Assembly (NCBI GenBank): GCA_032718475.1
Contig: JAUCBJ010005679.1
Location: 1-32,506 of the forward strand
Origin: Nemertoderma westbladi
Lineage: Eukaryota > Animalia > Xenacoelomorpha
DNA length: 32,506 nt
Direction of reading: 5' to 3'
Of the stretch, positions 2,362-31,900 are shown piece after piece. Position numbers and translations under genes: made by a program. The notes beneath the pieces were generated by a model that ran no database searches, was not told the DNA's origin, and saw nothing but the letters and a program-made list of their open reading frames with translations. Numbering within the stretch: position 1 is the stretch's first letter; the number at the start of each line of letters is the position of its first letter.

Positions 2362-4879
2362 GTCTTATTATATACGTCAAGTACGGGTAATAAAATGTCA
2401 AGTGTCTGAATGTTGAAGTGTCAAACTTACCTAACCGGTACAAATAAATCAACAAGTCAGAATGTCGAAATGTCAAAATGTCGAAATGTACAAATGTCAA
2501 ACTTACCTTGATATATATATATATCATATATATACCCTAACCGGTACAAATAAAACTAACAAAGGTATATAATAAAATAAGTAGTAATCTAGCCTACCGG
2601 CTAAATTTGTACGAATAAGTGAGATAACGGTATACGTTAACAAAATGTAGATCAACAAGTAAAACAATAGGCCAAACAGCAACGTCTAAAGGGAAAATAT
2701 GTACCAACAACACTACTAATAGACAGTGAAACCCACAAATTTTGAGTACTACTGTGCTTTCTTAAGTTTGAACGACGCGAGTCGTAAAACTTACGTTCCT
2801 TTGATCTTCCAGTCGTACAAATTCCCAAATACAAACCGGACGTGGGTCTTTCCGTTTTTCGGCGGCGCGGACGAATTTATTGTCTCCCAAACTTTGCGAA
2901 AAGCGGTCTAATCCTCGAAGCGGTCCAGAAATGAGTCCTTGAGTCCTGAAAAGGTCGAAGGTGAGAGTTTTACTTCTACGCTTACGAAAAATCTTCCTAG
3001 GTACCGATACAAATTGGTCTTTAAACCCTATGTACCTTTTCAAGTACCGAAAAGTAACACCGCACACACACGGCGTAAAACAAAGTGCTACAAACTAACT
3101 GTTAGCTAGTCAAATATTAAATACGAAAGTACTAGCTACCCTAAAAGCCTACTGAAGCAGGGGACGTTCTAAATTACTAAATTTACTAACCTTAGATTTT
3201 AAATATCTCCTACTTTCAATAGCTAACAATTCTAAACTATACTATACGCTACGGCGGAAATACTATATACTAATTTATATAAATACTTCCTACTGTAAGG
3301 GTCCAGTAGTATACCGCTTACCAGATCCTAGTAACGATGTATCTTACTATGAGACTCTAGTAATGTATACGGGCTTGTACAGTATCTGACAACAAATCCC
3401 AGTCCAGGATATCTAAACAAACAGATACAGTACACAAACGACTACTGGCGAGGAACAGAGCCTTGTATCTATTCTATGTACGTGAGCGGGTCTAATGCCT
3501 ACGTACTAGACAGAAGGATACCTGTCCTCTAACCGGTGAGGCAGATGTACAGTTACAGTAACAGACCAAACTCACGGGAAAACAATCCCCGCGCAGCGAA
3601 TCCTAACTATCACTGACAGTCCTAAATACAGTAACTTGCCGCGGTGTGATTTATATGGTTTATATACGAGCTAGTGGGTTAACAGACCTAGCGTAACAAC
3701 ACTGACAGTCCTAAATCAGTCGAAAAGGGGTCGTACCTAAATGTAACAATAACTGATCCCCCTGTACGAAATCAGTCTAAAAGGTCAGGCCTAAATGTAA
3801 CAATACCGTTGTCCAGACAAACAACAGTTTAATAACGAAAGTGAAATACTCCTTATTTTGCCGCAACTAAATCAGATCCTAATTTTACAAATACAGATAA
3901 TTTCCACCTAAAGTAATGTATAGTACGCTATAGCTAGTAGAACTTTAAGGGCGATATGTTTTAGGGCGTGTGTGTGTGGGTGTGTTACAAATAAAACAAT
4001 TTCGAGTAATTCCTTTTACTAGGTTTTAGTGATTTTCTGACTAAAATGATACCGTGCGCTAGCTACTAAAATAAACTAGTCGCGTTTGTAGAACTTTATA
4101 CTCACGAATGACGTCAAAGCTCTCTCCTTCCTATCCACAACCCAATGGGCAACCACAGTGTTAGTAACTACACCCGTGATCGGCACTAATACCAGATTCT
4201 GGTTGTAAGATAAGAATAGGGGTTAATCGCTACCGTACGTTAGCTGATCTGGTATACTAATTTAATTCTAGAACTTTGTTGCTGCGGTAGTTAGCAGCAA
4301 TACCTATCAGTACGTGGCAAGGCGCGGTAGGATATTAATAAACCTCCCTAGGCCAAGCAGTGTGCCGGTAGCAGAAATACTCCTTGCCTGATCAAATAGC
4401 TAACTCCAGACAGGGGGGGGGGGGGGGTACTAATGTACGTTCTACAAAGCGAACCGGTACCAAACAGTCAGTGCTACGAATCACTAAATTATGGAACATA
4501 TGCTGTCCGTACCTAATATGTACTCGCGTACTGACGAATGGCAATAGTTCGCACCTGTAGGAAGTACAGGTTAACCCAGGGGTTCGTAGGACTGACAAGA
4601 AGGGGGGGGGGGGTGTCTGGATATAATTATTTGATCCTAAATTTGCGGCGTCCAGTGCGGTGTCACGCTTACCCTGATCTATAGGTCTTACGGCGGGCAA
4701 GGGCGTCGAACAAAGTCTTACCTTCTCACAAAGCGGGCGCTGCATAGCAAGTGGAGTATTTCGAAGGGGCAAAGGGGGTGCGCGGTCAATCCAATGTGGG
4801 CGCTAGCGTGTTGTGGACATCCCTTCCCTGCGTTGCTTACGGCCTAACGGTCTAGGCTGCCATCTCCCTGGTGTTCGGC

Positions 4880-4897
4880 TGTCCCGAAGTCGGACCA
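4880..4897 (-). promoter_or_regulatory. Primer binding site (TGGTCCGAC..., tRNA-Tyr-like)
   Basis: Minus strand reads TTTT-TGGTCCGACTTCGGGAC. The first 9 nt are complementary to the 3' end of CCGAC-acceptor-type tRNA-Tyr, and TGGTCC-type PBSs are typical of BEL/Pao elements. Confidence 0.6.
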
Positions 4898-5049
4898 AAA
4901 GAAAACATGTCAGGAAATTGCAGTATATTTACAGTTTTACAAAGGATTTATCAAAACGAAGTTTCAACAAGAAACCGAATAAACTAAATTTTACAAGAAT
5001 AAGAGAGTGTAACACAAGGTATAAGGTTTGGTACTGAGGTGATAACAAG

Positions 5050-7980: not shown

Positions 7981-8934
7981 GTATTTCTTCAAACTGTCAG
8001 ACTGCTGATTTCTGGACTGTCAGACAGTTGATTTCACTATGCCTGTTGTAAAAGCTTTTGCGGGATGTAACTGGCCCTTTTTCTCCGCAATCCAGTTTCC
8101 CTCAATGCGCTCAAATACTCTAAAACTGCCTGGCTCGAGTGACGCAGTCTGCTGGCTGATTGGCTGATTTGCTGTACGTGTATGGCCTCTTTGTTCTGTT
8201 CGATCAACCAATCAGAACAATGATCGACCAATCAGAGCGATTTAGCCTTGTGTTGGCTGTGGGCTGCAAAGGCTAGGGAGGTTTGGCATTTAGACATTCG
8301 TGGAACCTATGGAATCTGGAGCTCTGCCAATGAGAGCTATTTCTCTTTGTGTTGAAAGATACCTGCAACAGCCCACAGGGATCAGTGTGTTGGTTTTCCT
8401 GATGCCAGAACATCGGCTATGGAATTATTCTGTTTCAGACTTTAGCCAAACATTAGAACGGCTTTGATTACCGGAACGTATAACTGTTATCCTGCCATAT
8501 TCTGCCAAACCAAACCAATGCATTTATGTACACACCGCATTATTTTACTGCTATTTACTGTCAATGTTTATTAATTGTATCTGTTGATGGAATATCGTTA
8601 TATTTGGATAATATCGATAAATAATCATAAAACCCCATCTTCTTGATATACTGAAGGTAAGAGACCGGTTACATATAGCAATTGCGACTTATATGATATT
8701 GGTTTTGGAGTGAATCTAATGCTATTTCATAGGCACTACAGGTGGCAATTGCTGTTCTCTTTATATGTGACTAAAATTAGAAAAGGTCGGCAGATCAGTG
8801 TGCAGTATTGTGCGGTACCGGTAGTGTGCATGATTGTGACCGATAACAAAGCATCACCTAAAGAATGCGCCTTATACGTGAATCATAAGCCATCCCGTTG
8901 TGTTTAGTGTAAGTCATAACTCTGTTTACATATT

Positions 8935-9262
8935 TAGAGCGCCACGTCCTAAAGGAACTGTTAATATTTCCCGAAAGTGAATAATATTTGTCAGAGATTA
9001 TATATTAACGATCAATCGAATAATACAGTAGGCCTACACCGCAATAAGGTCAGAGCCCCCGAATCCAGTCTCCCGGGTATATCCAGCGGGTGAATGGTCG
9101 CGCATAGGCTGGCTTCGGCTAATGTAGTGTATCAAATACTCGTCATAGGCTAAAGTCGATTTATAAACTAAAAGACACCTAAATTTGGCAGGTTAAACTG
9201 CTAAAGGTCTAAAAGTGCGAACAATAACAGTTATCGCTTCTTTATTGCAGTAAGCAATAAAG
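8935..9262 (+). ncRNA. Conserved structured RNA domain in the family B leader
   Basis: 43 nt invariant block (8935-8977) in all three copies; stem 9059-9118 with compensatory changes between copies; further hairpins TTTGGCAG/CTGCTAAA and TTTATTGC/GCAATAAA. Confidence 0.6.
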
Positions 9263-9496
9263 CTGAAGTACCGGTCGACCGGTAACCTGTAGGCCTAACT
9301 ACCTAACCACCGGAACCGGTACTTACAGCAGTATAAGTACATCAGTATTATTCGATTTTGATAATTATATACCGGTAGGTCTTAATATTAAATCGGGGAC
9401 GCCTGGTTTTTATTGGGATTTTACTTATTTCTGTCAGTTTTATTCATTTGTAGGCTAATATTGAGCAGAAGGCGTGTAAGCCTGCTCAGATCGTAC

Positions 9497-10095
9497 AGAT
9501 AATTTGTAGGCTGGACTGTTGTCTGACTGTTGTTAGGTCTGAACGGATTGTAGTGCATGTAGAGTGTATGTCCGATAAAGTGCCGGTTAGGAACGTAGGG
9601 GCAGCCAGTGCTGTAAGGTAAATCCCCCCCCCCCCCCCCCGAAAGAATAAGTCGTACTACTAGGTTAGAACGCATACTAACTAACCATTTCGGAGTCTGC
9701 ATGTACTGTAGTTTATTTAGGCTTGATAGTAGTCTGCCAGCGTTTGGTCTGTACTTTGTTTGTGTAGTCTGTGCAGGTACCGTAATATTTCTTATTCAGA
9801 TAATTTGTAGGCTAGATTGTTGTCTGGCTGTTGTTAGGTCTGAAGAAATTGTAGTGTGTGTGGAGTGTATGTCCGATAAAGTGCCGGTTAGGAACGTAGG
9901 GGCATCCAGTGCTGTAAGGTAAATCCCCCCCCCCGAAAGAATAAGTCGCACTACTCGGTTAGAATGCATACTAACTAACCATTTCGGAGTCTGCACATAC
10001 TGTAGTTTATTTAGGCTTGATAGTAGTCTGCCAGCGTTTGGTTTGTATTTTGTTTGAGTAGTCTGTACGGGTAGCGTAATATTTATTATTCAGAG
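9497..10095 (+). repeat. ~300 bp tandem duplication in the family B leader
   Basis: Units ~9497-9796 and ~9797-10095; the same duplication is at ~30440-31015 in copy 3. Confidence 0.9.
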
Positions 10096-11046
10096 TTTAT
10101 GCGATTATTCGCAACATTCATACCCCCAAGTTTATTCCTACAGTAATTGTGCTTGTTATACATACCGTTATAGTTAAATTAACCCCGGTACTACATCAGG
10201 GCTGCTCGGCGTAGGTAAAGACTGGAGATTTTGTGCTCTGGTCACTCCGGCAGATACCGTGGTTCTTTTAGCTGTACAAGTATTTTTAACTGCTGGTTAT
10301 TTGTTATACAAGTACTTGTACCTAATTTAGGGTTTAGTGTACAGTGCTTTCCGAAAGTAATTTAGTATGTAGGCAGTATATTTGTGTTGTAAAGTGGTTA
10401 ATAGGCACGTTAGCTCTGGTAGGCTGCGGTAATTAACTTCTAGGTAGGGACACTCCGTGATACATAACGTAGTACTTATAGCGATACGGCTATAAGTCGT
10501 CAGACGGTGGTATTTTTCCTATCTGGACAACGCAATATATTTACTACTGCTTATTATTTTCAAATACCGTAGTATCCTGTCCGTTGTAATAACCAGATTT
10601 TCTAACCCTTTGTTAGGCTGGTTTGTAGATTCCTTGTAAAATTACCCTAAAAATTCGTATTTGTGTATTTGTAATTTTTGTGTTTATTAAGAGATTGTAA
10701 TCTCACCCCGAATTGTACGTAATTTGTAGTAATAAGTAACTTAGGCAAGTAGAAACTATTTGTTTTAGTGTCCAACAAGTAGAACTTCACTGAGAGCGCA
10801 CAGCTTCTGTGTAGTGACTCCTTCCCAGAAATAATACCAATTATTTCAAATATTGTAACAAACCCATTATACGGGTATATATATTATAAATCAGCTCCAA
10901 TCGATTTATAAAACAGTAGGCCTGTTATATAACAATTAGGTCTTAACTTCAGTTGGACTACTGCGTAAATAACGGTAATAAAGTAAAGTAAAGTAACCAA
11001 GTAACCCCTAAAATTCAGAAATTCAATTATTCTAAAATAATTGACA

Positions 11047-11297
11047 TACCGGCATTTACAATAGGCTTATTATATTTATTTCTATAAATTTGAGCTGAAA
11101 TTATATACTGGTATTCTGTAACTAATTCTAGTTTATAATTATACTTATATACTATAAGTGTAAAGTTGTATACCGGTATTCACGATAGGCTTATTATATA
11201 TTTATATATATTTGCGCTGAAATTATATGCCAGTATTCTGTGACAAACGTAGTCTGTAATAATACTTATATATACTATAAGTGTATACCGGTATTCT
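11047..11297 (+). repeat. ~124 bp AT-rich tandem duplication
   Basis: TACCGG..ATAGGCTTATTATAT...TACTATAAGTGTA twice; also at ~31948-32190. Confidence 0.8.
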
Positions 11298-11431
11298 GAT
11301 ACATTATATATATATCACGTTACACTGAGTAACAGTATCGGTAATTAATTAATAGGCTAGTAGTGATACTGAATTACTAGACTTGCTTTAACTGTAATTA
11401 TAGCAGTAGGCATTCAACTGTACTAACAAAC

Positions 11432-12660
11432 ATGTCTGACACAAAGCAAAACCTGTCAGACAGTCTCCTAGATACAACCATCTGTGACCCAGACAGGAGT
11501 GTAGAACGTGTGAGACCAAAGTTCAACTCACCTCCTACTGTAAGAAAAGTCATCCCTCCAGTAGTAGTATCAGACCCTAGGCTAATTCAACACCGTAGGT
11601 CTATCATCGGCACTCGGGCCCAAGTCAAGCGGATCAAGAAGCAGCTGTCAAACAGCAACAACATCCTAGCCAAGAACTTGGTTCGCAGCGGCCCGATAGC
11701 TCCAGTAGTTCGGATACTGTAGAGCTGACACCCGAACGCGGAGCGAAGATGGCGGATACGGTTTATTCAGATCCCCTTCTCATTCTTCCTGCAGCAGTAC
11801 TAACTACGGTATTGATTGCGGTGGAGGAACACCAAATCGATTGGGTGAGAAGTAAGCGATCGACCAAAGACAGTTATGCGGGATACGCAAGGGAGGAGCT
11901 GATATCTATTGTCGAGTCGCAATGGAACTTCCCCGGACCCGGACTCCCGTTTGACTTATCAGAAGCTACCTGGGAAGACATACACAGGATGGGAGTGACA
12001 AAAGACACTATAGATCCAGCTGTGTGGAATAGGTCAGCAGCAGGATATGTACAGGGATTCTTCGGCTCTTCCAGAGGAACAACTGTTTCGACAACCCCAA
12101 GGACCTCAAGAGCAGGAAGAGCTGCTTTATCAAGTACGCGAAAGAACTTTACGTATTAGGCTAATCCTATCGGCCTTTGAGGAAGCTTCGAAAAGAAGAC
12201 AGGACACGTCGTTGCAAGTTGCTGTCAAGAATTGGTTCCAGTGAGTGAGTCTCAAGATTCAAGGAACGGCCAAGTGGAAATCTCAGTTGGCTGAGCGCAC
12301 AACCTATGGAGAATCAACCGACGCCACCTTTTCCCAAGTGGAAAGCGAAGCGACAGCAGAGAAACCGCGAACGAGAGACGCTATTGACATCTATCTGTCA
12401 GACTATCAACGATTCCTAGGTGACGAAGAGTTGAGGAGACGACTGTCTGGACTTCGCCCTAATAGTGAAGGAGCCAAGCTTGTGCTGGATGCAATCGATG
12501 CGGAAAGGTTAGCTGCGAACCAAGCTAAATTTGATGAAAGACTTCGCATCGCTAGGGTACAAGAAGAGCAAGTAAAGAAAAAATGTATAGAAGACAGAAA
12601 GGCAGTAGCAGCGGCAGTGGCAACGGCCGAAGCCGAAGCTGTTGCAAACGTCCCAGATAA
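11432..12660 (+). pseudogene. Disrupted gag-like ORF of family B copy 1
   Basis: ORFs 11432, 11749, 12047 and 12245 join into one protein after removing a 5 bp CTGTA insertion (11717-11721), one frameshift before or near 12050, and one in-frame TGA (12242). It shares MSDT...CDPDRS and an Ala-rich coiled coil with the family A ORF. Confidence 0.8.
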
Positions 12661-12834
12661 ACAAAACATACTTTGCTTTTACATTTAATTTGATCATATT
12701 CTGAGTTGGAGTATATTATAACAATGTTGTAGAATATAAATTAACAATATAGAGCGATATATGCGATACAGTATATAAAAGATGTACTGCTTGACATTAC
12801 ACTAAATACAGATATAACAATAATTAACGATTTA

Positions 12835-14216
12835 CACCATGTCCTGGAATATAGTGTCTTTATTCAGGTACATGCCCCCCCCCCCCCTTAATTTTTCTAC
12901 AAATCGTAATGAGATTGCATGAAATTTGAAACAGAGATAGTTTCACCTCCCGACCACTGACTGGGTGAGCCAGAATTTTTATTTTCGCTTCCATTCTTTA
13001 GCTACAAGCGTTTGAAAAAAGTGTCTCCAGCGAAATTGCACCGCAGTTATTCTTCAACCTTAGCCCTATACTGCCCTCCTAAGGCAAAACCATGTAACTC
13101 AAAAAATCGAGTTTTTAGAAAAATCAACCCAAAGTTAACGAATCTGCACGAAAACATGTGAATGTCTGTGTGAAAATTTTCAACACTAAAGTTTAGTCAA
13201 ATAGTTTATTTAAATACATAGAAAGTCTTAGAGCTCCAAACTTAAGCTAGCTATTTAAAAAATGTATTTTATTTTGATTTTCGAGTTACATGGATTTACC
13301 TTACAAATTCTAACCAGTTTAATTATATTACATCATGTAAATTATATAAATTTCAACAGCTGTTCCTAAGCCAAAACAATGTAACTCGCATGAGATACAT
13401 GGTGTTCGCTTATAGTTGTTACATGGAGTGTCATTATCATATTAGGGTTACATGGTTGGTTCTGCCTTGGCATGCCTTAACAAATTCACATAATGTCCCC
13501 TTGTACAATATTATAATAATAATACATACTGTATAATGTACATTCTACCCCCTTTATAAACCCTTTAGAGTTTAGATGCACTCTATTAAGTTCTACCACC
13601 AGATAGAGCTCGCCGTAAGCTTTAAAATGATACCAATATCTCATTTTCGTCAAAATTCAAGTTACATGGGTCTGTCTTAGGACGGCAGTATTGTGATTTG
13701 TAGGTATGTACTAGTGGAAAGCTGGCTATGCAAGGATTCCAACTATGTAACATAATATAAATTTCATCTTAAAATAGCTGAGATATCAGCGTTTAAAACT
13801 TGCATGGTTTTGCATATGAGCGAGGGTATTTTATTCTATTAAATAAATACAACATATTCTGGAATATTTTGTTTATCCCATAAGTAGCTTGGCAACAATG
13901 CAACACCACTTTAATCAAACTATTACATAGCTACACATGCATTGACAAAATATTCCAGAATATGTTATATTTATTTAATACTGTAGAATAATAGCCTCGC
14001 TCATATGCACAACCATGCAAGTTTTAAACGCTAATATCTCAGCTATTTTAAGACAAATTTAGATTATGTTACATAGTTGGAATCCTTGCACAACCAGCTT
14101 TCCACTAGTACCTACAAATCACAATAAGGTTGAAGAATAACCGCGGTGTAACTGGTGCAATTTCGCTGGAGACACTTTTTTCAAACGCTTGTAGCTAAAG
14201 AATGAAAGCGAAAATA
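12835..14216. mobile_element. Foldback MITE (CACCATG terminus), right end truncated
   Basis: TA|CACCATGTCCTGGAATATAGTG start. Long inverted arms (12980-13062 + 13691-13875 vs 13945-14216). Homologous to 24623-25525. Confidence 0.8.
13071..13688. mobile_element. Nested TA-flanked MITE (Tc1/mariner-type ends)
   Basis: TIRs CTGCCCTCCTAAGGCAAAACCATGTAACT / CTGCCGTCCTAAGACAGACCCATGTAACT (reverse complement); TA on both sides; the empty site is visible in the opposite arm of the host element (14111-14140); internal CATGTAAC/GTTACATG repeats. Confidence 0.85.
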
Positions 14217-15710
14217 GTCATTGTCTTCGTTCATGGAATCAAGGCCATTTATATTATTCCCAACAATGCTTCTCAAATGTCCAAGTGAAACCACATCATT
14301 ATCTTCAGTGTCCTTTGTGAGGACACTTGTCTTTCTAGTTAGGAGAAGGTTGTGAAGTGCAATAATCGCCTTAACAATAGTAATAGCATTTCGAGGACTA
14401 TTGCTTATAGCTTTTAGTAAAATTATAAACCTTGCAGCCATAATCCCAAAGCAATTCTCCACAATACGTCTTGCGCGGAATAGCGATAATTAAATACATA
14501 CCATTTCAAGCACATTTGATGTGTTGCGTGGGTTTCAATAGAGATTCGGGGAGTGCAAAAGCTTCATCGGCAAGGATGAAATACGGGAGGGGTTGTGAGT
14601 CCAGAATAGGCATGGGGTGGGGGAAGTACCTTCCTTCTATAAGTGATGTTAGAGAACAGTTCAAAGCAATACCGGCATCACCGGAAGATCCCGGTCGTCC
14701 TAAAACGTATGCCATTACACGCCCATATGCGTCAGAAATGGGTAGTAATACAATCGAATGGAATCCCTTAATAACTATTTACATAATTGTGTGCAAAGTA
14801 GCACTTTGCAGCGTTATGACCCGAGTTTATTTATGTACCGAGCGAGCCATGCGAGGGAGGTTCACATAAATAAACAAGGGTCTTTAACGCTGAAAAGTGA
14901 CCTTTGCAAGCATGATGTATGTAATTTTGTTATATTATCTCAACTTTTCACCGTTCGGTATGTGAAGAAAGGATTTTATGGATGCTCATATAAAATAAAC
15001 TTTAATCATGTACTATATCGTATATAAGTGAAATTGATTAACAGGTACAATGGCACACAGTATTAATTATACATTTAAATCTATTTAAAGTTTATTGGGA
15101 GTTTATCTCATGCATGGATGTGATAAATCACTAATCCATCTTGACTATAGTCGACTGAAGCAAACTTAGTCACCGTCTGTGTCCGTTCAGTTTCACTGAA
15201 CACTGTCGCCATTTTCTTTGCTCATTTTAGTGCCTTCTATTGGACGTTTCGCCATAATGGATTACAGTACACGTTAAACAATTATTTACCTACAGTAGAT
15301 AGTCCCTTCACTTCAAACTGGACGCACGCATTATGCAAACACGTGGTGCCTTATTGAATAAAGAAGCACGCATTTATATAAATGGAAATAATACATTCTG
15401 GAATACGGTAATTGAAGTTGTTTCCATGTCATTGATTACTTTGCAGCGTCCCGTCCTATAGGCCGCAACACTGCAAAGTAGTACTTTGCAGCGTTACGAG
15501 TAATTCATCAGAACGCTGTTAAGTTTACATAATGTAACAAACTTATAATACTCACTTCCACTGTTAGCTGGTTTTATTATTTCAATATGTTTCCCATCAA
15601 GAGCACCAACGCAATGGGGAAAGTTACCAAAGGCTTGATTCCTTCTAATATCCAATCGAATGTTGGGATGTCAACCCTGAACATTCGTTCAAATATATCT
15701 GGATCCTATG
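14217..15710 (-). pseudogene. PIF/Harbinger (DDE_Tnp_4, HARBI1-like) transposase relic, split
   Basis: Motifs in order: [25 protein letters not shown]; [27 protein letters not shown] (15545-15630); KGFHSIVLLPISDAYG..GRPGSSGDAGI; PYFILADEAFAL; VENCFGIMAARF..ALHNLL. There are frameshifts, an internal deletion and a ~770 bp interruption. Confidence 0.9.
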
Positions 15711-15866: not shown

Positions 15867-16570
15867 TTATGGTTTGTAAATTTCAATGTGACCTCCAAAT
15901 AATTCTTTCACCTTGATAAGCCGCTTGATCGTTTCTTGGAAACAGTGTTTCCAGTGAATTGTTTCCAGTTCGGAATTAATGCACGTCCTCAGCTCTTCTT
16001 GCGTCGTCACCGTTTCACTGTACACAATATTCTTGACATTACCCCATAAATAGTCGTCACAGGGAGTCAAATCGGGAGAACGAGCTGGCCATCGTATAGG
16101 ACCGTCTCTGCCAATCCACCTGTCAAGAAAGGTACTGTCCAAATATGAACGAACGTTAAGGAGGGCCCAATGTGGCGGTGCACCGTCCTGCTGAAACACC
16201 ACTTTGTCGGTGTTAGGACTCAGTCTTGGAATTAGAAACTCTTGCAGCATTGCCAGATTTTCTTAGCGTTGACAGACAAACCTTCGAAAATGTAAGGTCC
16301 AATAACTTGTGTGGAAGATAGATATGGCACACCTACTGTACTGTAACCGTTAACTTTGGTGAGTCACGGAAGCGTTCTGCCACTTTATGGGGGTTTTCAG
16401 TACCCCAAATTCTGCAGTTCCACAAATCCTGCAACTACCACATCCAGAACAACTCCAAAAGTCTAAGTTAACCTATTGGCTTTCATTTGATACCAAGAAG
16501 TCTGCGAATGATGCTCATTGTGACGAGTTAATAAACTTTAAAACCGGATCAAATTTATTGGGACGCCCTG
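15867..16570 (-). mobile_element. Tc1/mariner (rosa/DD41D-like) element relic with partial transposase
   Basis: NCRIWGTENPH..RDSPKLTV..VIGPYIFE..FQQDGAPPHW..RWIGRDGPIRWPARSPDLTPCD..LWG; 42 residues between the 2nd and 3rd Asp here; one terminus TA|CAGGGCGTCCCAATAAA at 16570. Confidence 0.88.
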
Positions 16571-17084: not shown

Positions 17085-17432
17085 CTAGGGAATAGGGATG
17101 CCAGCTTCCAGACTTTCAATCTTTACTGCCGCGCAAACCCCGCAGAGGAAGTTTTGGTTTGAGAGATCAAGCCCATCGGCAATTGGTGTTTCAATTTCGG
17201 TCCAGGAACTCTGACAATGGGAGCATTCAATCTTAGCTGTGGTCCATTCCCGAGGTTTCGGCTTCCTTTTCTTCGTCCCAATGACAGATTCCTCTGAAGA
17301 CGTTCGATTCGCTTTCAGTTTATTGTTGGCGTTTGTGTTTTGAAGTTGTATTCGAGTGGACAGTCGCGCCGGTTTCGAGGTAACCATACCGACCTGTGAT
17401 AAGTGTTGGTTTTGTTGAGTGCCGGTATTCAT
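17085..17432 (-). pseudogene. Probable LINE (CR1/L2-group) ORF1 N-terminal fragment with a C4 zinc finger
   Basis: Basic stretch KKRKPKPR, then CSHC-x23-CGVC, then the start of a coiled coil (KIESLE) and an abrupt end. Confidence 0.45.
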
Positions 17433-17710
17433 CTTCTCTCACCTCTTCAATGTCAGATGTTGCAAATACTGATAACACGAATAACGGTATATATTTCAAT
17501 ACTTGTCAATGGTAATATATATAATTTAGATAACTATTTTATATCTGTACTGTTGAGCAAACTCTACATAAATTTCAACCTGTGTATCGCCGGTAGTGCT
17601 GTTGCTGTGCAAGTGCTGAAGTGCTAGTTGCCACCGGTCACGCGGTCAGCCGGTACCGGTAGTAGGGTGGTACCATGGCCTACTACACACAGGCCATGAC
17701 AAGGACTTTG

Positions 17711-18989
17711 TGTACGCGCTTTTGAAGACCTTTAGCAGTTTAACCTGCCAAAATTTATATGTCTTTTGGTTTATCAATATACTTTAGAAGATGACAAATA
17801 TTTAATACCAATAAACACAACATTAGCAGAAGCCAGCCTAGTGCGCGTCCATTCACCCGCTGGATATTCCCGGGAGACTGGATTCTGAGGGCTTAGATTA
17901 TTATTGCAGTGAAGCTTACTGTATTATTCGATTGATCGTTAATAAATAATTTCTGACTAATATTATTCACTTTCGGGAAATATTAACAGTTCCTTTAGGA
18001 CGTGGCGCTCTATGTAAGTAAACAGAGATATGACTTATACTAATCACAACGGTAAGTCGGTAAGGCTTATGATTCACGTATGAGGCGCATTCTTTAGGAA
18101 ATGCTTAGTTATCAGCCACAATCATGCACACTACCGGTAACACACAATACTGCTCACTAACTTGCCGACCGTCAATGAAATTTATCATATATAAAGAAAA
18201 TAGCAACGGACCAATGTAGTGCTTATCAAATAGCATTAAATTCAATACACACCACAATAATATAAGTCGCAATCGCTATATATATAACCCGCCTCTCTAA
18301 CCTGTAGTGTATCAAGAAAGTTGGGAAATTTGGGTTCTTTATAAATGTTCTCCAAATAATATTCAACCAAACAACAGCAAACTATTAAGACGGTAGGTTA
18401 AGATATGATATGAACCGATATGTACAGTGATATGCACTGATATGGACCGATATGTGATATGAGTTGTTAAGAACTGATAACAGTCATACGCTCTATAATT
18501 TTAGCCTACTAATGTTTCTTCTAAAAGTATGAAACGAATTGACTCTAGAGCCGTTGTTTCTGGCCTAGACAGCAATAACAACAAAGTATCAAGTAAAAAC
18601 AGTAAGACTGAACACTCTCCTTATGATCGGCCGAAAAGCTACATGTCAACAGGAAAAATCGCTCTGATTGGCTCAAGCCAAACAAAGAACCATGCGTCCA
18701 ATGGCTGTTTCCATGTCAGCAACCAGCTGTTAGATGTCGTAATATGAATCATCACGGCTAAGCTGTGAAAGGTATTTGGTGCATTGTAGGTTTTTTGCCT
18801 TACCATGTCCGCCAAAACACGTATATAGTAGAATGACTTTTATATCCGTTAAAACACCTATAACGGTACCTTGCGGGCGAGGGGAATATATATACAGTTA
18901 GAGAACCTTTTAGAGTATTCCAGCACCTGGGGGGGAAACTGGATTGCGAAGCAAAAAGGGGCCAGTTATATCCCACAGAAGCTTTTACA
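17711..18989 (-). mobile_element. Family B copy 2 (putative LTR + start of leader only)
   Basis: Reverse complement starts TGTAAAAGCTTCTGTGGGAT and aligns to 8047-9222; cut off at the inner edge of the P-like TIR. Confidence 0.85.
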
Positions 18990-19129
18990 CTTTGCTATGA
19001 AATTAGCGTAGGCTGACTGATGAATTATCAAATGTTATATTTTCCATGAATGCAGGGTCCATATTTAAAAGAAGATGACTAGATTTTCGCAAAGAATTTA
19101 ATTGAAACAGTATTTAATAATTAATAAAT

Positions 19130-19490
19130 TAATTATCGCTCGAGTTCCTGCAGCTTTTATTCGCTTTTATTATTTTGTTTGTGGCTGCCTCTGGCTATGT
19201 TTGTGGCAGGAATGTTTAAACGCTAATAAGTCGGTCAATCATGGATGAAATGGAACCAAACTTGGTACACATGTAGTCTATAAAAAATTTAGAAATTCTA
19301 CACACAGACAGACTTCTACAGTTCCCCGGTCTGCCGCTAGGGGGCGAATTAACAGAAACGTAAAAATAGCTGTAATTATAGAACCAACGATCAGATTCAT
19401 CTGAAATTTAGTAGTAGTTACCTAAGAGCATTGCTTAATTAGAAATTCTACAGTGACTTTTACAGTTCCTGTCTGCCGCTAGTGGGGAAT
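19130..19490 (+). mobile_element. HINE/Helentron-like repeat fragment
   Basis: Shares CCAAACTTGGTACACATG with 21311-21332 (reverse complement) and TCTGCCGCTAGRGGGC with 22908-22923; internal two-unit repeat. Confidence 0.45.
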
Positions 19491-19599
19491 TGTTAGAGCT
19501 CCAGTTCAACGTGCTTAGCTCGGTTTAATAAACAATCAATTAATTATTTTATTCTATACAGTAATTATAACAGTAAAATGCAATGTATTCTATTTTTTA

Positions 19600-19880
19600 G
19601 TGAATTCAAGAGATAGGAGGGGGGTGGGACTGGACGCAAATCCCATCTTGGCGAATTAATATCCCACCTCAATATTAATTTCTCAATTTTGGGAAAGGAG
19701 CAGGTTACAGTGGCACGTTGTTTTAACCAAAACAATAAAGTAAACACAATATAACAGGTTACAGTTTTATTTTTGAGAGTAATCAGCTGTTGTTATTTGC
19801 GTCCAATTTCCCCTGGAGAGGGATGAATTTTTATTGCGTCCAGTTCCCCCCCCCCCCCCCCCCCCCCCTATCTTGAAATC
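19600..19880. mobile_element. Small inverted-repeat (MITE-like) element
   Basis: TTCAAG(AG)ATAGG(G)n-ACTGGACGCAA at 19605-19639 is inverted at 19834-19877. Confidence 0.55.
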
Positions 19881-19999
19881 AAATACCAAAAATATATTTA
19901 TTATATGAACAATCTATTTGGAAATTGTAAGTTCGGCCTATCTCTTTACCATAAGCTCAGTATCTTTATCTGGTGTGTTTTTATTATTTTACCAATTAT

Positions 20000-20623
20000 T
20001 TAATGTTTGATAGAATTGAACAACACCGCCCAACACAACCAACTCTCTATCCGCCTCGAGCATCGAGAATATGAGAAACTCGATCGAAATACCTGCTTAT
20101 CCCAGTAGTATCCGTCCGTAGTCACCGGACCGCTGCGGTTTACTCCCGTAGAACAGTATAATTCCCGCGGCTTCCGACCCAATTCGACAACGAATTCGCT
20201 TCACACTTTAGCGTCACAGAGAACGTAATCCAGTGCGATAACGTCTGCCCAACGTTCAACCATTTCCCCCAGGCGATCCCAGGATCCGGGCCGCCGCTAA
20301 ACCCAGATCGCAATCCTCGTCGATTCGTCCAGTCGTCGACGTAAGTCAGTAAGTGGGACTCTTCCCACCGCACTCCAAGGTGGGTGACCGGAGTGAGGCA
20401 TGAGGAACTTGGCAGTGGCCCGCATTACGATCTGACCGACCGCCGTATTCCCAGTGTCTGAGTGTAGTAAATACCCAAATAGAATCGTACTGACAAACAA
20501 GCAATTCCGTAGTATTCCCCCGTTAATCACCTCTTGAAGCAACTCGGCTGCTCGGGTCCAGATACATCGGACTGTCGGGAGCGTTTCAGACAGTAACGGA
20601 GCGGCATTTGCGAATATTTCCAA
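20000..20623 (-). pseudogene. Frameshifted coding-like segment of unknown identity
   Basis: GC-richer island covered by three overlapping minus-strand ORFs (20297-20623, 20140-20373, 20000-20182) that chain with two frameshifts. No motif recognised. Confidence 0.35.
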
Positions 20624-21253
20624 TGGTTTTATAATAAATAAGGGGATTCAACAGTTCAATGCTAAAACAAATGGATTATTCCCAACCCCACCCCAATACA
20701 GCAATACTGCAATATACCTAACAGTATATAGCTTAGGTACCACAGTCTGACAGTACCATAATCAGCACAGTCAGCCCACGCTAATTTCACAGCAAAGTCC
20801 TTGTCATGGCCTGTGTGTAGTAGGCCATGGGTGGTACCTACGGTGCGCACTACAACGGCAGTACAGCAATACGGTGTACCGTGCCAATGACTGAATGATT
20901 AGCGGTAACTATCTAAACTATTATATTATTATTACCGGTGCCGGTACTGGGCTAATTAGGCCTAAACTATAATCACCGCAAGGGTTGCCGTTGCCGTTGC
21001 CATGTTTAATTAGATTACATGATATGGCATGTCTGCAGTGTATGGTACCGGCTGACCAGTATTGCAGTATTGACTGATTGCAGGATTCTCGATTCAGGGA
21101 TTGAGTACAGCCTGACAGTACCGGTACACATGGTACATGCAGAATTGCAAAATTTGTCAGAAACACAGCTGATTTATCCTACAGTAATAATAATTTAACG
21201 CATTTTAAATTTGGATAAATAAATTTATTATAACTGCAATAACAATTACACTG

Positions 21254-22494: not shown

Positions 22495-22600
22495 TGTGGG
22501 GCGAGCCACGAAGTTGGCGGAGCCTTAGCGAATTGACACTGTTAGGGGGTGGGTCAATTTATGCAAATAGTTGTCGTCGTCGTCGTCGTCGTCGTTGTCG

Positions 22601-22632
<32 letters not shown>

Positions 22633-23030
22633 GTCGTCGTTACGATTTTGACATGCTAATAACTTTGTCGGATTTAAAGCTGCCAAGTTGAAAATTTGTA
22701 GGTATCAATATGAGCAAAAGTTGAGATTTTTGAGAGACTTTCAGACACCATCAGTGCAATGGTCTCCCGCTAGAGGGCCACATGTCTAAACATTAAATGC
22801 CCTCCCATTTCTTTGCTTTTAATCCGTTTAAGCTGAAACTTGGCAGATATGTATTAGACCATTAGCTGTGACTTTCAAAGGAGGCGAATCCATCTGCAGT
22901 TCTCCAGTCTGCCGCTAGAGGGCCAACGTGACAACGACAACTATTTGCATAAATTGACCCACCCCCTAACAGTGTCAATTCGCTAAGGCTTCGCCAACTT
23001 CGTGCTGCGAGAAGTCCCCACTTCGTGTAG
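22495..23030 (+). mobile_element. HINE/DINE-1-like element with (GTC)n microsatellite and inverted duplication of its 5' end
   Basis: TGTGGGGCGAGCC head; (GTC)n at 22573-22640; two CCGCTAGAGGGCC units; 22507-22580 inverted at 22930-23004; CCCCAC subterminal complement. Confidence 0.6.
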
Positions 23031-24503: not shown

Positions 24504-24622
24504 TTCAAGGGCTTGTTTTCCCATCATTATTATGCAGATGAAAAATTGATATAAGCAAACCTTTTGTATTTTCGTATTATTTTATACAGTGTATTATCAT
24601 TATACTGTATATATATGTATTA

Positions 24623-25525
24623 CACCATGACCCGTAATATAGTGTTATTTTCTGATGATACGGACATCCCCCCAAATTTTTCTACAAATCTTTATCATAT
24701 TGCTTGAAATTTGAAACACAACTATAGTTCAACTCACCGTGGTTGTTACCATGAAGCCGGAATTTTCTATTTCGCTTTAAAAAATTTTTTATAAGTGTTT
24801 AAAAAGTGTCTTATGTGAAATCGCACCATCCATATCATTGCCATTCTTCACATTAGACGTAATTTTTCATATCAATAGAAAGCTTGCGTTGCAAGGATTC
24901 CAAATATGTAACAATATCTGCATTTCGTTGAGCAACAGCTGAGAAATACGTGTTCAAAGATTGCAAGAATTATTGTTCGCTAAAAGCCATTTATTCTATT
25001 TAATAAATACACAATATTCTAGAACGTGTTATTTATTTGAAGAGTTGGTTGGCAACAGCGGAATGCCTATACAATATGTATATTGCGTAGCTAATCATAC
25101 ATAAACAAATTGTTCCAGAATATTGTGTATTTATTAAATAGAATAAATGGCCTGCAGTGAACAATAATTCTTGCAATCTCTGAATGCCTTTATCTAAGCT
25201 GTTTCTCAACGAAATTCAAACATTGTTACATATTTGGAATCCTTGCCACGCAAGCTTTCTATTGATATGAAAAAATTACGACTAATTTGAAGAATGGCAA
25301 TGATACGGATGGTGCTATTTCGCAAAAGACACTTTTTTAAAACGCTTATGAAAAAAATTTAAAGGCGGAATAGAAAATTCCGGCTTCATGGTAACAACCA
25401 CGGTGAGTTGAATTACTGTAGTTGTGTTTCAAATTTCAAGCAATACTGTATGATAAAGATTTGTGTAAAAATTTGGGGGGGTTTCCGTGTCATCAGAAAA
25501 TGACACTATATTACGGGTCATGGTG
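24623..25525. mobile_element. Complete 903 bp foldback MITE in the intron
   Basis: TA|CACCATGACCCGTAATATAGTG...CACTATATTACGGGTCATGGTG|TA; arms are complementary over ~400 bp around a centre near 25074. Confidence 0.9.
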
Positions 25526-26280
25526 TACAGTATATATATTATGTGTGTTTTAGAATTTCCAATCGCTCAGAATATAATTTGCTACTACTGTACGCTGTAA
25601 TATAATCTAATAGTGCAGTACAGTAGGCCTATAGCTATTATATTCAGCGTTTATTACCTTTGTATATTTATGTAAACCTACCTCGGTGCGCTGGCTCGGT
25701 TAATAAATACATTCAAGTCATAACGCTGAAAAATGATACTTTTAATACAATGATGTAAATACAGGAATACAGTAGTTAGGTATTATTGATTTCTCGTGGG
25801 CCTATATTGTTAATCAGAAATCATGTTTTTATATTTAGGGTGTCTACAATAATTCGTTACATACATATTGTATAATGATGCGTCAAGTTTCTTTGTTATA
25901 CGTATCAATGTCAATGCATAAAAGAGTATGTCTTTAATCGTAAAAATAAATAATAAACACAGAAACAATGCTCATAAGAAATACTTTTGAAAATTTGGTT
26001 TTAAATCATCAGCTCAGCTACCAAGAAAATGAAGTCACTAATCAATAAGTCACATTAAGTCATCAATAAGTCAATAACTGTTCGAGAACATCTACATACA
26101 TAACTAACAGTGTAGAGCAGCAAGTTCCCTTTCCTGGCGATAAGATAGACCTGCCTCAAGAATTAGACTGACAGCATTTATTAGGAAAATGTCTGAAACA
26201 TTCTCAAATAACCTTCCTTTTATTGTACATAATTCCAAAATTATCATATGAAAGCATGTAAAAAATTAAAATTTACACAG

Positions 26281-26951
26281 ACAGTCCGGGCACAGACAGC
26301 AAGGTCCCTTATTGCAACCGATACACAGGCCCTTCAAGTGGCACACAATTCACAGTGATACAGCCTCCTACTCAATCACCCAATACAGTCAACCAGCCGA
26401 CCTCGGGCTCACAAGACTGGAGTTATTTATGTTGCTTTTATCCCTATGTACAACGGAATATCCCAACCTCGCAAACGGAAGAAGATGAATGCTGCTGCAC
26501 TCTGACGTGCCTGTCTACCATCTTGGCGGTGTGTTCCGGGTTTGACATTGTTCTCGGTTGGGTTACGATCGCCCTGGGCAGAGCCTCTGGTCTCGGTGGC
26601 GCCCCAATATGGGGTGGCGGGGTTTTCCTTGCCGCCGCTGTACTTGGAATACTTTCCGGACGTGACAATCGACGACCACGGTGTTTAACCCTGACCTCTG
26701 CGTTGATTGGTTGTTTTGTTTGGCCCTTTGTTATCGGAATTGTGTCCCGTGTAATGAGTCTCGATTTCCAATGTCTACACAATAAAGATACAGGTTCGGG
26801 ACTCACTTGCAACCAAGAGTTGGTGGCTGCGTCGTTGGGCGTAGACAGCGCTATGTTTGTTTTTACTATGGTCGCAGGCGCTATGTTGCTAAGTATTGCG
26901 ATACATAGCCGCCGTGCTTGTTCGGACAGTTGCTGCGGCGGCTGTTTTTAA
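26281..26951 (+). CDS. Exon 2 of a CD20/MS4A-like four-transmembrane protein (281 aa when spliced)
   Basis: Four hydrophobic segments; TM2 motif GAPIWGGGVFLAAAVLGILSG resembles CD20-family GxPxWGG; a Cys pair in the second loop; Cys clusters flank the TM region. The frame is open from the acceptor TTTACACAG| at 26280. Confidence 0.75.
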
Positions 26952-28304: not shown

Positions 28305-28560
28305 GTAATAAATACTATTCTGGGGCGTTTTATTGAATTAATGATTTGATTTGAGTTACGACAATAGTAAAATGGCATCAAGTAATTAATATTCTTCAAA
28401 TAAATAATATGTTCCAGAATATTGTGTATATATTACAGTAAATATAATAAATTACCTGTCCTGCAGGCTGTAACGGATGCAAATACCTGCACTTTTTGAA
28501 CGCCCATATCTCAGCTAATTCTCAACAACATTAATAGTTATTACAAATTTGGAATCCTAT
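28305..28560. mobile_element. Degraded fragment of the CACCATG foldback family
   Basis: TGTTCCAGAATATTGTGTAT...ATATCTCAGCT...TTGGAATCCT aligns to 25111-25245 and 13953-14085. Confidence 0.6.
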
Positions 28561-28945: not shown

Positions 28946-31900
28946 TGTAAAAGCTTTTGTGGGATAACTGATACGTTTGCCTTTGCTGGCCAGTTCCCCC
29001 CCAGTCGCTAGAATACTCTCAAAGGGATTTATAACTAAAATAGTGCAAGCTACCAGCTTATTGGCTGATGTGCTGTACGGAGATATCTGGGCTCAGTTTA
29101 ATCGGCCAACTAGCTTAGAGAGGTTGCCTTAGCCTTGCTGTCCGTATCGGCCAATAGAATTTGAGTGGGCGTTGATTTCGACCTATCCCAGAGCTACTGA
29201 ACTGAATTTCCTATCTCACTGCTCATCCTCTGTGTTGGACGGGAGCTTCGGGGAATAAGGGTATTTGGTATACTCGTATAGTGGTAGTAGTTATATGATT
29301 TTATATGATTCTGTTGTTGTGTTCCCATTTTTCGCCATAACACCGGCTTTTTGGGAAGAACTCTAGTAAAACTGCTTAAATTATCGAAAGTATAAACTGT
29401 TACCTACTCACGAATCTTAACTAACTCACTTAATTTAACTGCATTAATCATATTGTTTGTACTGTTATTTTACTGTCAGTTATTAATTGTATCTATTTGT
29501 TGATGGAAATATTGCTCTTTGGAGAATACGGATAAATCACCCAAAATTCCCAATTTTCTTGATACACTACAGGTTAGAGAGACGGGATATATATAACAAT
29601 TGCGATTTATATTAATGTGGTGTGTATTGAATCTAATGTTATTTAGCAGACCCTACATGAGTCAATTGCTGCTCTCTTTATGTGTGATCAAATATACTGA
29701 CGGTCGGCAGAATAGTGTGCATGATTGTGATTGGTAACAAAGTATTTCCTAAAGAATACGCTTTATACTTTAATCATAAGCAGTATCGTTGCGTTTAGTA
29801 TAAGTCTTAGTTCTGTTTAAATAGATAGAGCGCCACGTCCTAAAGGAACTGTTAATATTTCCCGAAAGCCAATAATATCTGTCAGAAATTAATTATTAAC
29901 GATCTATCGAATAATACAGTAAGTTTACACTGCAACCTTACACTGCAATAATAAAATGTAAGCATCCGAATTCAGCCTCCCGGGTGTAGATCCATCGGGT
30001 GAATGATCGCGCATGGGCTGACTTCGGCTAATGTTTTGCGTATTAGCATAAAATATTGTCGTATGCTAAAGGTGTTTTAATTAACTAAAAGACATATAAA
30101 TTTTGGCAGGTTAAACTGCTAAAGGTCTTCAAAAGCGCGAACAGTAACAGTTTATACTTTTATTGCAGTAGGCAATAAGGTTGCAAAACACCGTAGTGAC
30201 TGGTAAAACTGAACCGGTACTTCTGTAGGTCAGTAGGCCTAACTGTCATCACCGGTACCGGTACTGCTGTACAAGTACATTTAGTATTATTCGATTTTGA
30301 TTATTGTATACCGGTAGGCTGTTTAAGAGATTAGGGACTGTACACCCCTTGTTTCTTTTGGAGCTTACTTATTTCTGTCGGTTTTATTTCCTAGTAAGTT
30401 AATATTGAGCTGAAGACGTGCAAGTCTGCTCAGATTGTTCAAATAATTGTAGGCTGAACTGCTGTCTGACTGTGTTGAGTTTGGAGAGATTACGGCGTGT
30501 GTAGAGTTTGTCTGATCAAGTGCCGTTAGTAAGTTGGGGCAGCCATATGCGGTAAGGTCAATCCCCTCTTAAAGAATACGTCGTACTACCGTGTTAGAAC
30601 GCATACTAACTAACAGTTTCAGAATCTGCATATACTGTAGTTTATTTAGGCTTGATTGTAGTCTGCCAGTGTTTTAGCCTGTGTTTGTTTGTGTGGTCTG
30701 TTCAGGTACCGTAATAGTTATTACTCAGATATTTTGTAGGCTAGATTGTTGTCTAGCTATTCTTAGGCCTGAAGGGATTGCTGCGTGTGTAGAGTTGGTC
30801 TGATAAAGTGCCGTTAGTAAGTTGGGGCAGCCATATGCGGTAAGGTCAATCCCCTCTTAAAGAATAAGTCGTACTACCGTGCTAGAACGCATACTAACTA
30901 ACAGTTTCAGAATCTGCACATACTGTAGTTTGTTTAGGCTTGATAGTAGTCTGCCAGCGTTTAGTTTGTATTTTGTTTGAGTATTCTGTACGGGTAGCGT
31001 AATATTTATTATTCAGAGTTTATGCGATTATTCGCAACATTCATGTCCCCAAGTTTATTCCTACAGTAATTGTGCTTGTTATACATACCGTTATAGTTAA
31101 ATTAACCCCGGTACTACACGGGCTGCTTGGCGTAGGACAAGACTGGTGACTTTGTGCTCTAGTCACTCCAGCAGATGCCGTGGTTCTTTTAACTGTTCAA
31201 GTATATTTAACTACTGATTATTTGTTATACCGGTACTTGTACCTAATTTAGGGTTTAGTGTACAGTGCTTTCCGAAGTAATTAGTGTAGGCAGTATATTT
31301 GTGTTGTAAAGTGGTTGATAGGCACATTCGTTAGCTCTATTAGCTTCTGGGTAGGAACAATCCGTGATACATAACGTAGTACCTATAGCGATACGGTTAT
31401 AGGTCGTCAGGCGGTGGTATTTTCCTATCTGGACAGTACAATATATTTACTACTACTTATTATTTCAAATACCGTAGTACCCTGTCCGTTGTAATAACCA
31501 GAATTCTAACCCTTTGTTAGGCTGGTTTGTAGACTTCCTGTAAAATTACCCTAAAAAATTTCGTACGTAATATTTTGTTGTGTTTAATTAGAGAATTAAT
31601 CTCACCAGTATAGTAAGTAATTTGTAGTATTAAGTAACTTAGGTAAATTAGAATTATCAGTTTTAGTGTCAAATAAATAGCACTTCACTGAGAGCGCACA
31701 GCTTCTGTGTAGTGACTCCCCCAGAAATAATAACATTTATTTCAAATATTGACAAAAAACCCATTTAAACGGGTATATAAATATTATAAATCAAATCAAA
31801 CGATTTATAAATAGTAGGCCTGCCATACAACAACTAGGTCTCACTATCAGTTGGACTACTGCTTAAATAACGGTAATAAAGTAAGTTAAAGTAACTAAGT

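What the first reader, a model, noticed from the sequence alone, without database searches (positions are those of the whole stretch)
8935..9262. Covarying structured RNA in the retrotransposon leader
Seen in three copies (9059-9118; ~17826-17887 reverse complement; ~29966-30027). The outer stem CCGAA/TTCGG becomes CAGAA/TTCTG in copy 2. The inner stem CCAGTCT/AGGCTGG becomes TCAGCCT/GGGCTGA in copy 3. That gives two double compensatory changes plus wobble-preserving changes. A 43 nt block is invariant, and neighbouring stems (GTTAATA/TATTAAC, TTTGGCAG/CTGCTAAA, TTATTGC/GCAATAA) persist. It does not fit the hammerhead, HDV, twister or pistol cores as I know them. Inference: a possibly undescribed multi-stem cis-element (packaging signal, IRES-like domain or ribozyme).
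Basis: partly seen in the sequence, partly recalled or inferred. Interest (0 to 1): 0.8.

Follow-up and report, generated by a model that had tools for sequence, protein, structure and literature searches.

The report
Self-priming LTR with knotted RNA end
The conserved, co-varying stem is real and sits in the last 290 bases of the terminal repeat of an abundant jumping element of a likely animal genome; that element carries a copy-matched self-complementary site in place of a tRNA primer site, so the stem is likely part of an RNA fold that would let the element prime its own reverse transcription.

Summary
The main observation holds. The 12-bp stem 9059-9118 forms in all three copies, with two double changes and none broken; 3 of 1455 column shuffles gave as much.

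The region is not a free leader. It is the 3' end of a 1.2-kb LTR (8047-9223, TGT...ACA); copy 2 is a solo LTR with a 5-bp target duplication.

No tRNA primer site follows the LTR. Instead the next 11 nt (copy 1) or 17 nt (copy 3) are the exact reverse complement of a site 430-440 nt into that copy's own LTR; cross-copy matches reach only 8 nt. This is the signature of Tf1/sushi-type self-priming.

The stem's loop can also pair with the last LTR bases (9098-9103 with 9215-9220, one further double change), a candidate flanking duplex of the Tf1 'pretzel'.

Best reading: a cis-acting R/U5 scaffold for self-primed reverse transcription. Limits: only three whole copies, no RNA data, no pol gene, and weak single-sequence folding in two copies. 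Rfam and ribozyme cores gave no match. IRES and packaging roles stay open.

The parts
8047..9223 (+). LTR, copy 1 (1177 bp, TGT...ACA), followed by internal sequence, so a 5' LTR
   Evidence: boundaries fixed by the target duplication of copy 2
8047..8479 (+). Inferred U3: the variable part (58-59% identity between copies), no AUG depletion
   Evidence: the U3/R border is inferred from the primer site
8480..8490 (+). Predicted self-primer (inferred 5' end of the genomic RNA); exact reverse complement of 9224-9234
8935..8977 (+). 43-nt block invariant in three copies; weakly structured (3-bp hairpin and 5' strand of a helix); likely a sequence-specific binding site
9041..9056 (+). Candidate LTR strand of the duplex downstream of the PBS (pairs with 9236-9248; copy 3: 29942-29950 with 30161-30169); not beyond chance on its own
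9059..9118 (+).
9098..9103 (+). Loop strand of a predicted 6-bp pseudoknot with 9215-9220; U-A in copies 1 and 3, A-U in copy 2
9184..9205 (+). Invariant 8-bp hairpin, pair probability 0.92-0.98 for 7 of 8 pairs in copy 1
9215..9220 (+). 3' strand of the predicted pseudoknot, 3 nt before the LTR end and the PBS
9224..9234 (+). Primer-binding site directly after the LTR; no TGG; complementary to the copy's own 8480-8490
9241..9261 (+). Hairpin after the PBS (copies 1 and 3 only); mutually exclusive with the 9041-9056 duplex
9224..11431 (+). 2.2-kb internal leader, strongly depleted of AUG (8 seen, 36 expected)
11432..12688 (+). Coding-like region in three separate frames (11432-11722, 11749-12159, 12245-12688); no known family; gag-like only by position
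17711..18989 (-). Copy 2: solo LTR (1279 bp) with a 5-bp target duplication CAAAG, inserted into the terminal inverted repeat of a DNA transposon
28946..30143 (+). Copy 3: 5' LTR (1198 bp); predicted self-primer 29387-29403, stem 29966-30027, PBS 30144-30160; internal part runs off the window

Best explanation
[quoted passage not shown] Shown by the sequence: LTR ends, target duplication, absence of a TGG primer site, copy-specific complementarity between an LTR site and the bases right after the LTR, and the co-varying stem. Inferred: the genomic RNA starts near 8480, and its first 11-17 nt loop back over about 740 nt onto the PBS. The stem presents its loop (9098-9103) to the last LTR bases (9215-9220), and 9041-9056 may pair just downstream of the PBS, giving a three-duplex arrangement like the Tf1 'pretzel'. 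By analogy with Tf1, the RNase H of a reverse transcriptase (supplied in trans or by a part of the element not in this window) would cut after the primer and copy the LTR end. The same domain may also serve in packaging.
For: LTR: TGT...ACA ends in three copies. Copy 2 has CAAAG on both sides, and the host inverted repeat resumes beyond it (28 of the first 30 nt identical). Self-priming: own-copy matches of 11 and 17 nt ending exactly at the LTR end, at homologous LTR positions (434, 442); cross-copy matches 8 nt. 9 of 3000 shuffles reach 11 nt in copy 1 and 0 of 3000 reach 14 nt in copy 3. The duplex forms with probability near 1 for most pairs in both predicted RNAs. AUG depletion is absent in copy 1 before 8480 and present after it on the plus strand. 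Stem. Contigs of other copies show pair-keeping variants at 9108 (75-77% of summed depth, U-G to U-A) and 9109. Pseudoknot: best partner of the LTR end in all three copies; 79 of 3000 shuffles give such a helix with a double change; 9216 is C in 99.7% of depth, which makes copy 1's G-U a G-C. Tf1 model: passages of PMC7175516 and PMC10085805.
Against: Only three whole copies; the pair-shuffle control is weak (19 of 500), and no R-scape-type test was possible. The main stem is not predicted in context in copies 1 and 2. Both flanking duplexes are within chance by energy: pre-PBS 114, 96 and 35 of 400 shuffles; post-PBS 79 and 138 of 400. The pseudoknot was found after the fact, before I read of the pretzel. 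No transcription start was measured. No RT, RNase H or integrase was found in the window. Only 40 of 98 variant rows were shown, so pair-breaking variants may be hidden, and 9118 G>A alone would break a pair. A 290-nt conserved domain is more than a pretzel needs, so a second function is likely.
Confidence: 0.5

Rival explanations
1. The element self-primes, but the domain works in translation: an internal entry or shunt site that loads ribosomes after the LTR's AUGs, which then scan the 2.2-kb leader.
For: AUG is the most depleted of 64 trinucleotides in the internal leader (z about -6 in copies 1 and 3). AUG density falls from 9 in 455 nt upstream of the domain to 8 in 2208 nt downstream (p 0.0008), and four AUGs in R-U5 are kept in all three copies. 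IRES elements are reported in some insect LTR elements (PMC3383448, passage).
Against: The upstream part is itself mildly depleted (O/E 0.4-0.58). The neighbouring element has the same depleted leader without this domain. A second promoter or splicing would give the same pattern (Tf2 uses a downstream start, PMC5341516 passages). No Rfam IRES match.
Confidence: 0.17
2. The domain is mainly a packaging or dimerisation signal read by Gag, unrelated to priming.
For: Self-complementary CCCGGG and CGCG/GCGC motifs lie in the loop of all three copies, and the 43-nt block is conserved in sequence. The Ty1 5' region has a pseudoknot and palindromes linked to dimerisation and reverse transcription (PMC3681743, passages).
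Against: A variant that replaces 9075-9087 and loses CCCGGG but keeps CCC/GGG occurs in 7 contigs of X1 and 2 of X3. The loop's partner lies 3 nt from the PBS.
Confidence: 0.15
3. The stem is not a selected RNA structure. The paired changes arose by chance or by template switching in a DNA inverted repeat, and the conservation reflects DNA-level promoter or integrase signals.
For: Low predicted pairing in context in two of three copies. Single helices of 5 bp or more with one double change are common by chance (mean 8.5 per shuffle, 11 real). The region's folding z-score is only -1.83.
Against: 3 of 1455 shuffles match the compound stem. All six changes keep pairs (209 of 1,000,000 simulations with two double changes, uncorrected for selection of the stem). 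G-U pairs form only on the plus strand. The copy-2 type change at 9060 recurs in 8 contigs of X1 and 2 of X3, so it is not a one-copy accident.
Confidence: 0.12
4. The domain is a ribozyme of a new class that cuts the RNA, to release the primer or to make the 3' end.
For: Pseudoknot-like topology, conserved single-stranded loop residues (one variant of 1% or more in X1 and X3 in the few central positions that call could report), and no AATAAA conserved in R-U5. Earlier notes report many hammerheads in this genome (unchecked).
Against: No Rfam match at E up to 5 and no hammerhead or HDV core motif. Small self-cleaving ribozymes leave a 2',3'-cyclic phosphate that cannot prime (established knowledge, recalled). 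In Tf1 the cut is made by RNase H (PMC7175516, passage).
Confidence: 0.06

Closest known systems
Tf1/sushi self-priming LTR retrotransposons and their three-duplex 'pretzel' 5' UTR (PMC10085805, PMC7175516, PMC4600332; passages read)
   Same: No tRNA primer site; an LTR-internal 11-17 nt segment complementary to the bases right after the LTR; TGT...ACA ends; 5-bp target duplication; candidate duplexes on both sides of the PBS in the right order.
   Different: LTR about 1.2 kb against about 0.4 kb for Tcry1, with about 740 nt between primer and PBS. The pre-PBS partner sits in the loop of a co-varying 12-bp stem, making a pseudoknot. There is a 2.2-kb internal leader and no recognisable gag, RT or chromodomain integrase in the window. 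The passages read list the group from fungi, vertebrates and non-seed plants; this host is not identified.
Self-priming predicted in plant Tcn1 (gypsy) and TAR (copia) lineages (PMC6317226, passages)
   Same: Shows that self-priming is predicted in more than one superfamily, so the trait does not fix membership.
   Different: Plant elements; no comparable R/U5 structure was described in the passages read.
Ty1 5'-terminal long-range pseudoknot (PMC3681743, passages)
   Same: A pseudoknot near the 5' end of an LTR retrotransposon RNA whose loss impairs reverse transcription rather than packaging.
   Different: Ty1 is tRNA-primed; no sequence relation is claimed or was tested.
IRES-bearing 5' UTRs of insect errantiviruses (PMC3383448, passage)
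   Same: Long 5' UTR of an LTR element with possible internal entry.
   Different: Here the structured domain is inside the LTR and 2.2 kb from the first long ORF.

Membership tests
LTR retroelement | Terminal repeat with TG...CA ends | tested here: met
   TGT...ACA in 3 of 3 copies
LTR retroelement | 4-6 bp target-site duplication around a solo LTR or whole element | tested here: met
   CAAAG on both sides of copy 2; host repeat resumes beyond it
LTR retroelement | Two LTRs around an internal part, with a polypurine tract before the 3' LTR | not testable with these tools
   No 3' LTR in the window; no whole genome held
LTR retroelement | gag and pol domains | tested here: inconclusive
   No Pfam match for the frames of the internal region; no homologs; the element is cut off at about 12.8 kb
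Tf1/sushi group | PBS complementary to an LTR segment instead of a tRNA | tested here: met
   11 and 17 nt own-copy matches, 8 nt cross-copy
Tf1/sushi group | Primer segment is the 5' end of the RNA | not testable with these tools
   Only contigs were available; the AUG pattern is indirect support
Tf1/sushi group | Two flanking duplexes of the pretzel | tested here: inconclusive
   Both present at homologous places and in the right order, but within chance by energy; one double change in the pre-PBS duplex
Tf1/sushi group | RT phylogeny and chromodomain integrase | not testable with these tools
   No pol in the window
BEL/Pao | tRNA-type PBS beginning TGG after the LTR (recalled feature) | tested here: not met
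   No TGG start after the LTR end in copies 1 and 3
Known self-cleaving ribozymes (hammerhead, HDV-like, twister, pistol, hatchet) | Match to the family model or core motif | tested here: not met
   0 Rfam matches at gathering score (whole window) and at E up to 5 (8500-11600); no CUGANGA or HDV L3 motif on either strand
Group I intron | Rfam core match; insertion without target duplication | tested here: not met
   No Rfam match; copy 2 has a 5-bp duplication and TGT...ACA ends
IRES | Cap-independent initiation | not testable with these tools
   Needs a reporter; AUG pattern ambiguous; no Rfam match
Dimer initiation site | Conserved palindrome exposed in a loop | tested here: inconclusive
   CCCGGG in 3 of 3 window copies but lost in a variant in two samples

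The most novel reading that the evidence does not exclude
A self-priming LTR lineage outside the Tf1/sushi chromoviruses, in an invertebrate and possibly kin to the tRNA-primed BEL/Pao-like neighbour. Its 290-nt R/U5 domain clamps both sides of the primer duplex through loop-tail pseudoknots and switches the RNA between translation (internal entry) and reverse transcription; in the boldest form it cuts the primer free itself.
Probability: 0.15. Interest if true: 0.78.

Novelty: new variant of a known kind. Interest (0 to 1): 0.5.

Why it matters
In the passages I read, self-primed reverse transcription was demonstrated for fission-yeast Tf1 and inferred for its relatives and two plant lineages. 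A very abundant family in a likely animal genome, whose primer and PBS differ in step between copies, offers many natural variants from which the initiation structure can be read by covariation. Its R/U5 fold is larger and more knotted than the pretzel described for Tf1. If its pol places it outside Tf1/sushi, it would be a further independent origin of tRNA-free priming. If not, it is a well-delimited new example with an undescribed RNA domain.

Tried and rejected
Searches for relatives of the RNA:
- Rfam: nothing.
- Whole genome: not held, so no deep alignment could be built.
- Exact 22-nt pattern: 0 hits in metagenome and viral contigs.
- Degenerate loop pattern: 24 + 2 loci, all 50-70% GC and matching only the pattern itself (at most 23 nt), so rejected as chance.
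- A covariance model from the three copies found only those copies and their reverse strands at E below 0.5 in the window.
- Earlier findings by sequence, words and nearby place: nothing.

Protein searches:
- No homologs for 11749-12156, 12245-12685 or residues 85-330 of the neighbour's ORF.
- Single-sequence folds were uninformative (pLDDT 36.6; 64.4 with one long helix), so I ran no fold search.

Sequencing runs:
- No RNA holder was listed, which is no evidence on expression.
- The narrow lay on 9050-9128 did not list differences near the ends of the stretch, so it gave no allele counts for the stem arms.

Readings dropped:
- LTR ending at 9177 with a TGGCAG primer site: dropped once the target duplication fixed the end at 9223.
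- 8939-8942 pairing with the LTR end (alignment fold): weaker than the loop pairing (-4.5 against -8.7 kcal/mol).
- A conserved upstream ORF from the AUGs at 9094 or 9122: by eye from the alignment, not kept between copies.
- Self-priming in the left neighbour: best match 6 nt, so absent.

Lin and Levin 1998 (PMC109269) was not held.

Full report
1. The observation. The three copies align at 87-88% column identity over the region. The stem is as described: 9059-9063 with 9114-9118, and 9065-9071 with 9106-9112. All 36 cells pair; two pairs change on both sides (C-G to A-U in copy 2, C-G to U-A in copy 3) and two on one side. To allow for picking the best stem after the fact, I searched the whole 808-column R-U5 alignment for 13-position helices with 12 pairs kept in all copies. 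This stem is the only one. 257 of 1455 class-preserving column shuffles contain such a helix, 18 with one double change and 3 with two. The 43-nt block 8935-8977 is invariant (1 of 20000 shuffles).

Against the observation: uninterrupted helices of 5 bp or more with one double change are common by chance (11 real, mean 8.5). The 328-nt region folds at z -1.83. Single-sequence folding in context loses the stem in copies 1 and 2 while keeping it in copy 3.

2. More copies. Six of seven listed runs hold the stretch or part of it. On 8880-9340, 6361, 3443, 1722 and 56 contigs were laid from four runs of at most three samples; I infer a very abundant repeat, though depth is not copy number. Of 98 variant rows 40 were shown, and four of these fall on paired stem positions. 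9108 G>A (77% and 75% of summed depth in X1 and X3) and 9109 C>T keep the pair. 9059 C>T and 9118 G>A would together be a third double change. Loose ends show T at 9059 in 23-24 contigs of X1, and in X4 both changes are consistent with one 247-nt contig (inferred from lengths). The copy-2 type base at 9060 recurs in 8 contigs of X1 and 2 of X3. A variant replacing 9075-9087 keeps CCC/GGG and loses the CCCGGG palindrome (7 and 2 contigs). The tool gives no phased sequences, so this is support and not a covariation test.

3. What the DNA is. The shared unit starts TGT (8047; 18989 minus; 28946) and ends ACA (9223; 17711; 30143), and is 1177, 1279 and 1198 bp long. Copy 2 is flanked by CAAAG on both sides and interrupts the inverted repeat of a DNA transposon, which resumes beyond it (28 of the first 30 nt identical to the far end). 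It is therefore a solo LTR with a 5-bp target duplication, and the ends are exact. Copies 1 and 3 continue into a shared internal region (83% identity). [quoted passage not shown] No 3' LTR, RT or integrase was found in the window (82 frames of 58 aa or more lie beyond 9200, of which 74 went into, 7 into and one microsatellite frame was left out). The three coding-like frames at 11432-12688 have no homologs. The superfamily is unresolved. That the host is an animal is inferred from its repeats and from unchecked earlier notes.

4. Self-priming. No TGG follows the LTR. The first 11 nt after LTR 1 are the exact reverse complement of LTR positions 434-444 (8480-8490), and the first 17 nt after LTR 3 of positions 442-458 (29387-29403). 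Each PBS matches the other LTRs over only 8 nt. 9 of 3000 dinucleotide shuffles reach 11 nt for copy 1, and 0 of 3000 reach 14 nt for copy 3. The duplex ends exactly at the LTR end and forms with probability near 1 for most pairs in both predicted RNAs. Identity between copies rises from 58-59% before the primer site to 72% after it and 78-86% in 8935-9223. AUG is not depleted in copy 1 before 8480, mildly depleted after it (O/E 0.4-0.58 in three copies) and strongly depleted in the internal leader (8 against 36; 5 against 34), unlike control regions (O/E 0.8-0.93). This fits a plus-strand transcript that starts near the primer, but no start was measured.

5. How the stem fits. [quoted passage not shown] This needs a three-duplex 'pretzel' in which sequences on each side of the PBS pair with LTR sequence downstream of the primer (PMC10085805, passages). 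With the last 12 columns fixed, 1267 of 3000 shuffles give some 6-bp helix and 79 give one with a double change; I found this helix after the fact. The best partner of the bases after the PBS is 9041-9056 in copy 1 and the homologous 29942-29950 in copy 3, starting within one base of the primer duplex in both. It competes with the local hairpin 9241-9261. By energy neither flanking duplex is beyond chance.

My best reading (0.5) is that the stem is a helix of the scaffold that frames the primer duplex, as a pseudoknotted version of the pretzel. The LTR identity (about 0.95) and self-priming (about 0.85) are firmer than the role of the stem.

6. Rivals. Internal ribosome entry (0.17): AUG density drops after the domain and four upstream AUGs are conserved, but the neighbour's leader is equally depleted without the domain, and a second start would do the same (PMC5341516, passages). 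Packaging or dimerisation (0.15). No selected RNA structure (0.12). New ribozyme (0.06): no Rfam or core-motif match.

7. Comparison and novelty. It works like Tf1/sushi, but membership cannot be tested without pol. Self-priming is also predicted in plant Tcn1 and TAR lineages (PMC6317226, passages). Ty1 has a 5' pseudoknot needed for reverse transcription (PMC3681743, passages). The ends resemble the Sushi and rGmr1 5' motif but not their 3' motifs exactly (PMC3601003, passages). I also read passages of PMC4600332, PMC6934838, PMC5443660, PMC2864245 and PMC3383448. I read no whole paper and no supplement, and did not see Levin 1995, Lin and Levin 1997/1998 or Butler 2001, which could describe comparable elements. 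Ten searches of the open library listed no paper whose title or abstract opening points to a self-priming invertebrate or BEL/Pao element or to this domain; most subscription papers are not covered. Two earlier notes on a 1.2-kb insert in this genome (e1-10418371, e1-10418362) prompted me to recheck the unit's end and the group I reading. Look-ups by sequence found no look-alike, so I cannot say they concern the same repeat; for this one the target duplication and Rfam result argue against an intron.

8. Verdict. New variant of a known kind; interest 0.5.

Noticed in passing
window 17674-20829: Non-coding DNA transposon with inverted ends starting CATGG (37 bp perfect, about 62 bp once the solo LTR is discounted) and an 8-bp target duplication GTACCACC; P-element-like by recall. 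It carries the solo LTR and sits upstream of a zinc-finger-like ORF (17085-17438, minus).
   Followed up: partly
window 1 to about 5600, minus strand: A second LTR-like element: open 787-codon ORF from 2361, 2.5-kb AUG-depleted leader (6 seen, 29 expected), TATA and initiator-like motifs near 5080 and 5055, and a TGGTCC site near 4898 (BEL/Pao-like by recall). Its ORF shares two short collinear segments with 11432-11719 (pairwise E 5e-4 and 3e-3): a weak hint of kinship.
   Followed up: partly
window 9224-11431, 30144-32270, 2362-4908: AUG is the most depleted trinucleotide in all three multi-kilobase leaders (z -5 to -6), on the sense strand; this suggests very long scanned 5' UTRs.
   Followed up: partly
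window 9496-10094 and 30435-31017; 11046-11315: Tandem duplications of about 300 bp and about 120 bp in the internal leader, shared by copies 1 and 3; the 300-bp unit holds a C run and a TACTAAC motif.
   Followed up: no
window 9030-9058: Variable segment just before the stem; by eye a short helix with the 9041-9047 motif in its loop recurs in several variants, but it is not predicted in copy 2.
   Followed up: partly
window 12832-14216, 24609-25539, 28393-28558: Family of inverted-repeat (MITE-like) elements with long internal palindromes; one lies where copy 1 is cut off.
   Followed up: no
window 14184-14778 and 15867-16262, minus strand: DDE_Tnp_4 transposase fragments and a Tc1/mariner-like catalytic fragment (motif recalled; no Pfam hit).
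   Followed up: no
window 26262-26951: 229-codon open frame with hydrophobic segments and a weak CD20-like match (E 0.011, below cut-off); possibly a host gene.
   Followed up: no
window 22507-23004: 75-nt 97% inverted repeat around a (GTC)n microsatellite.
   Followed up: no
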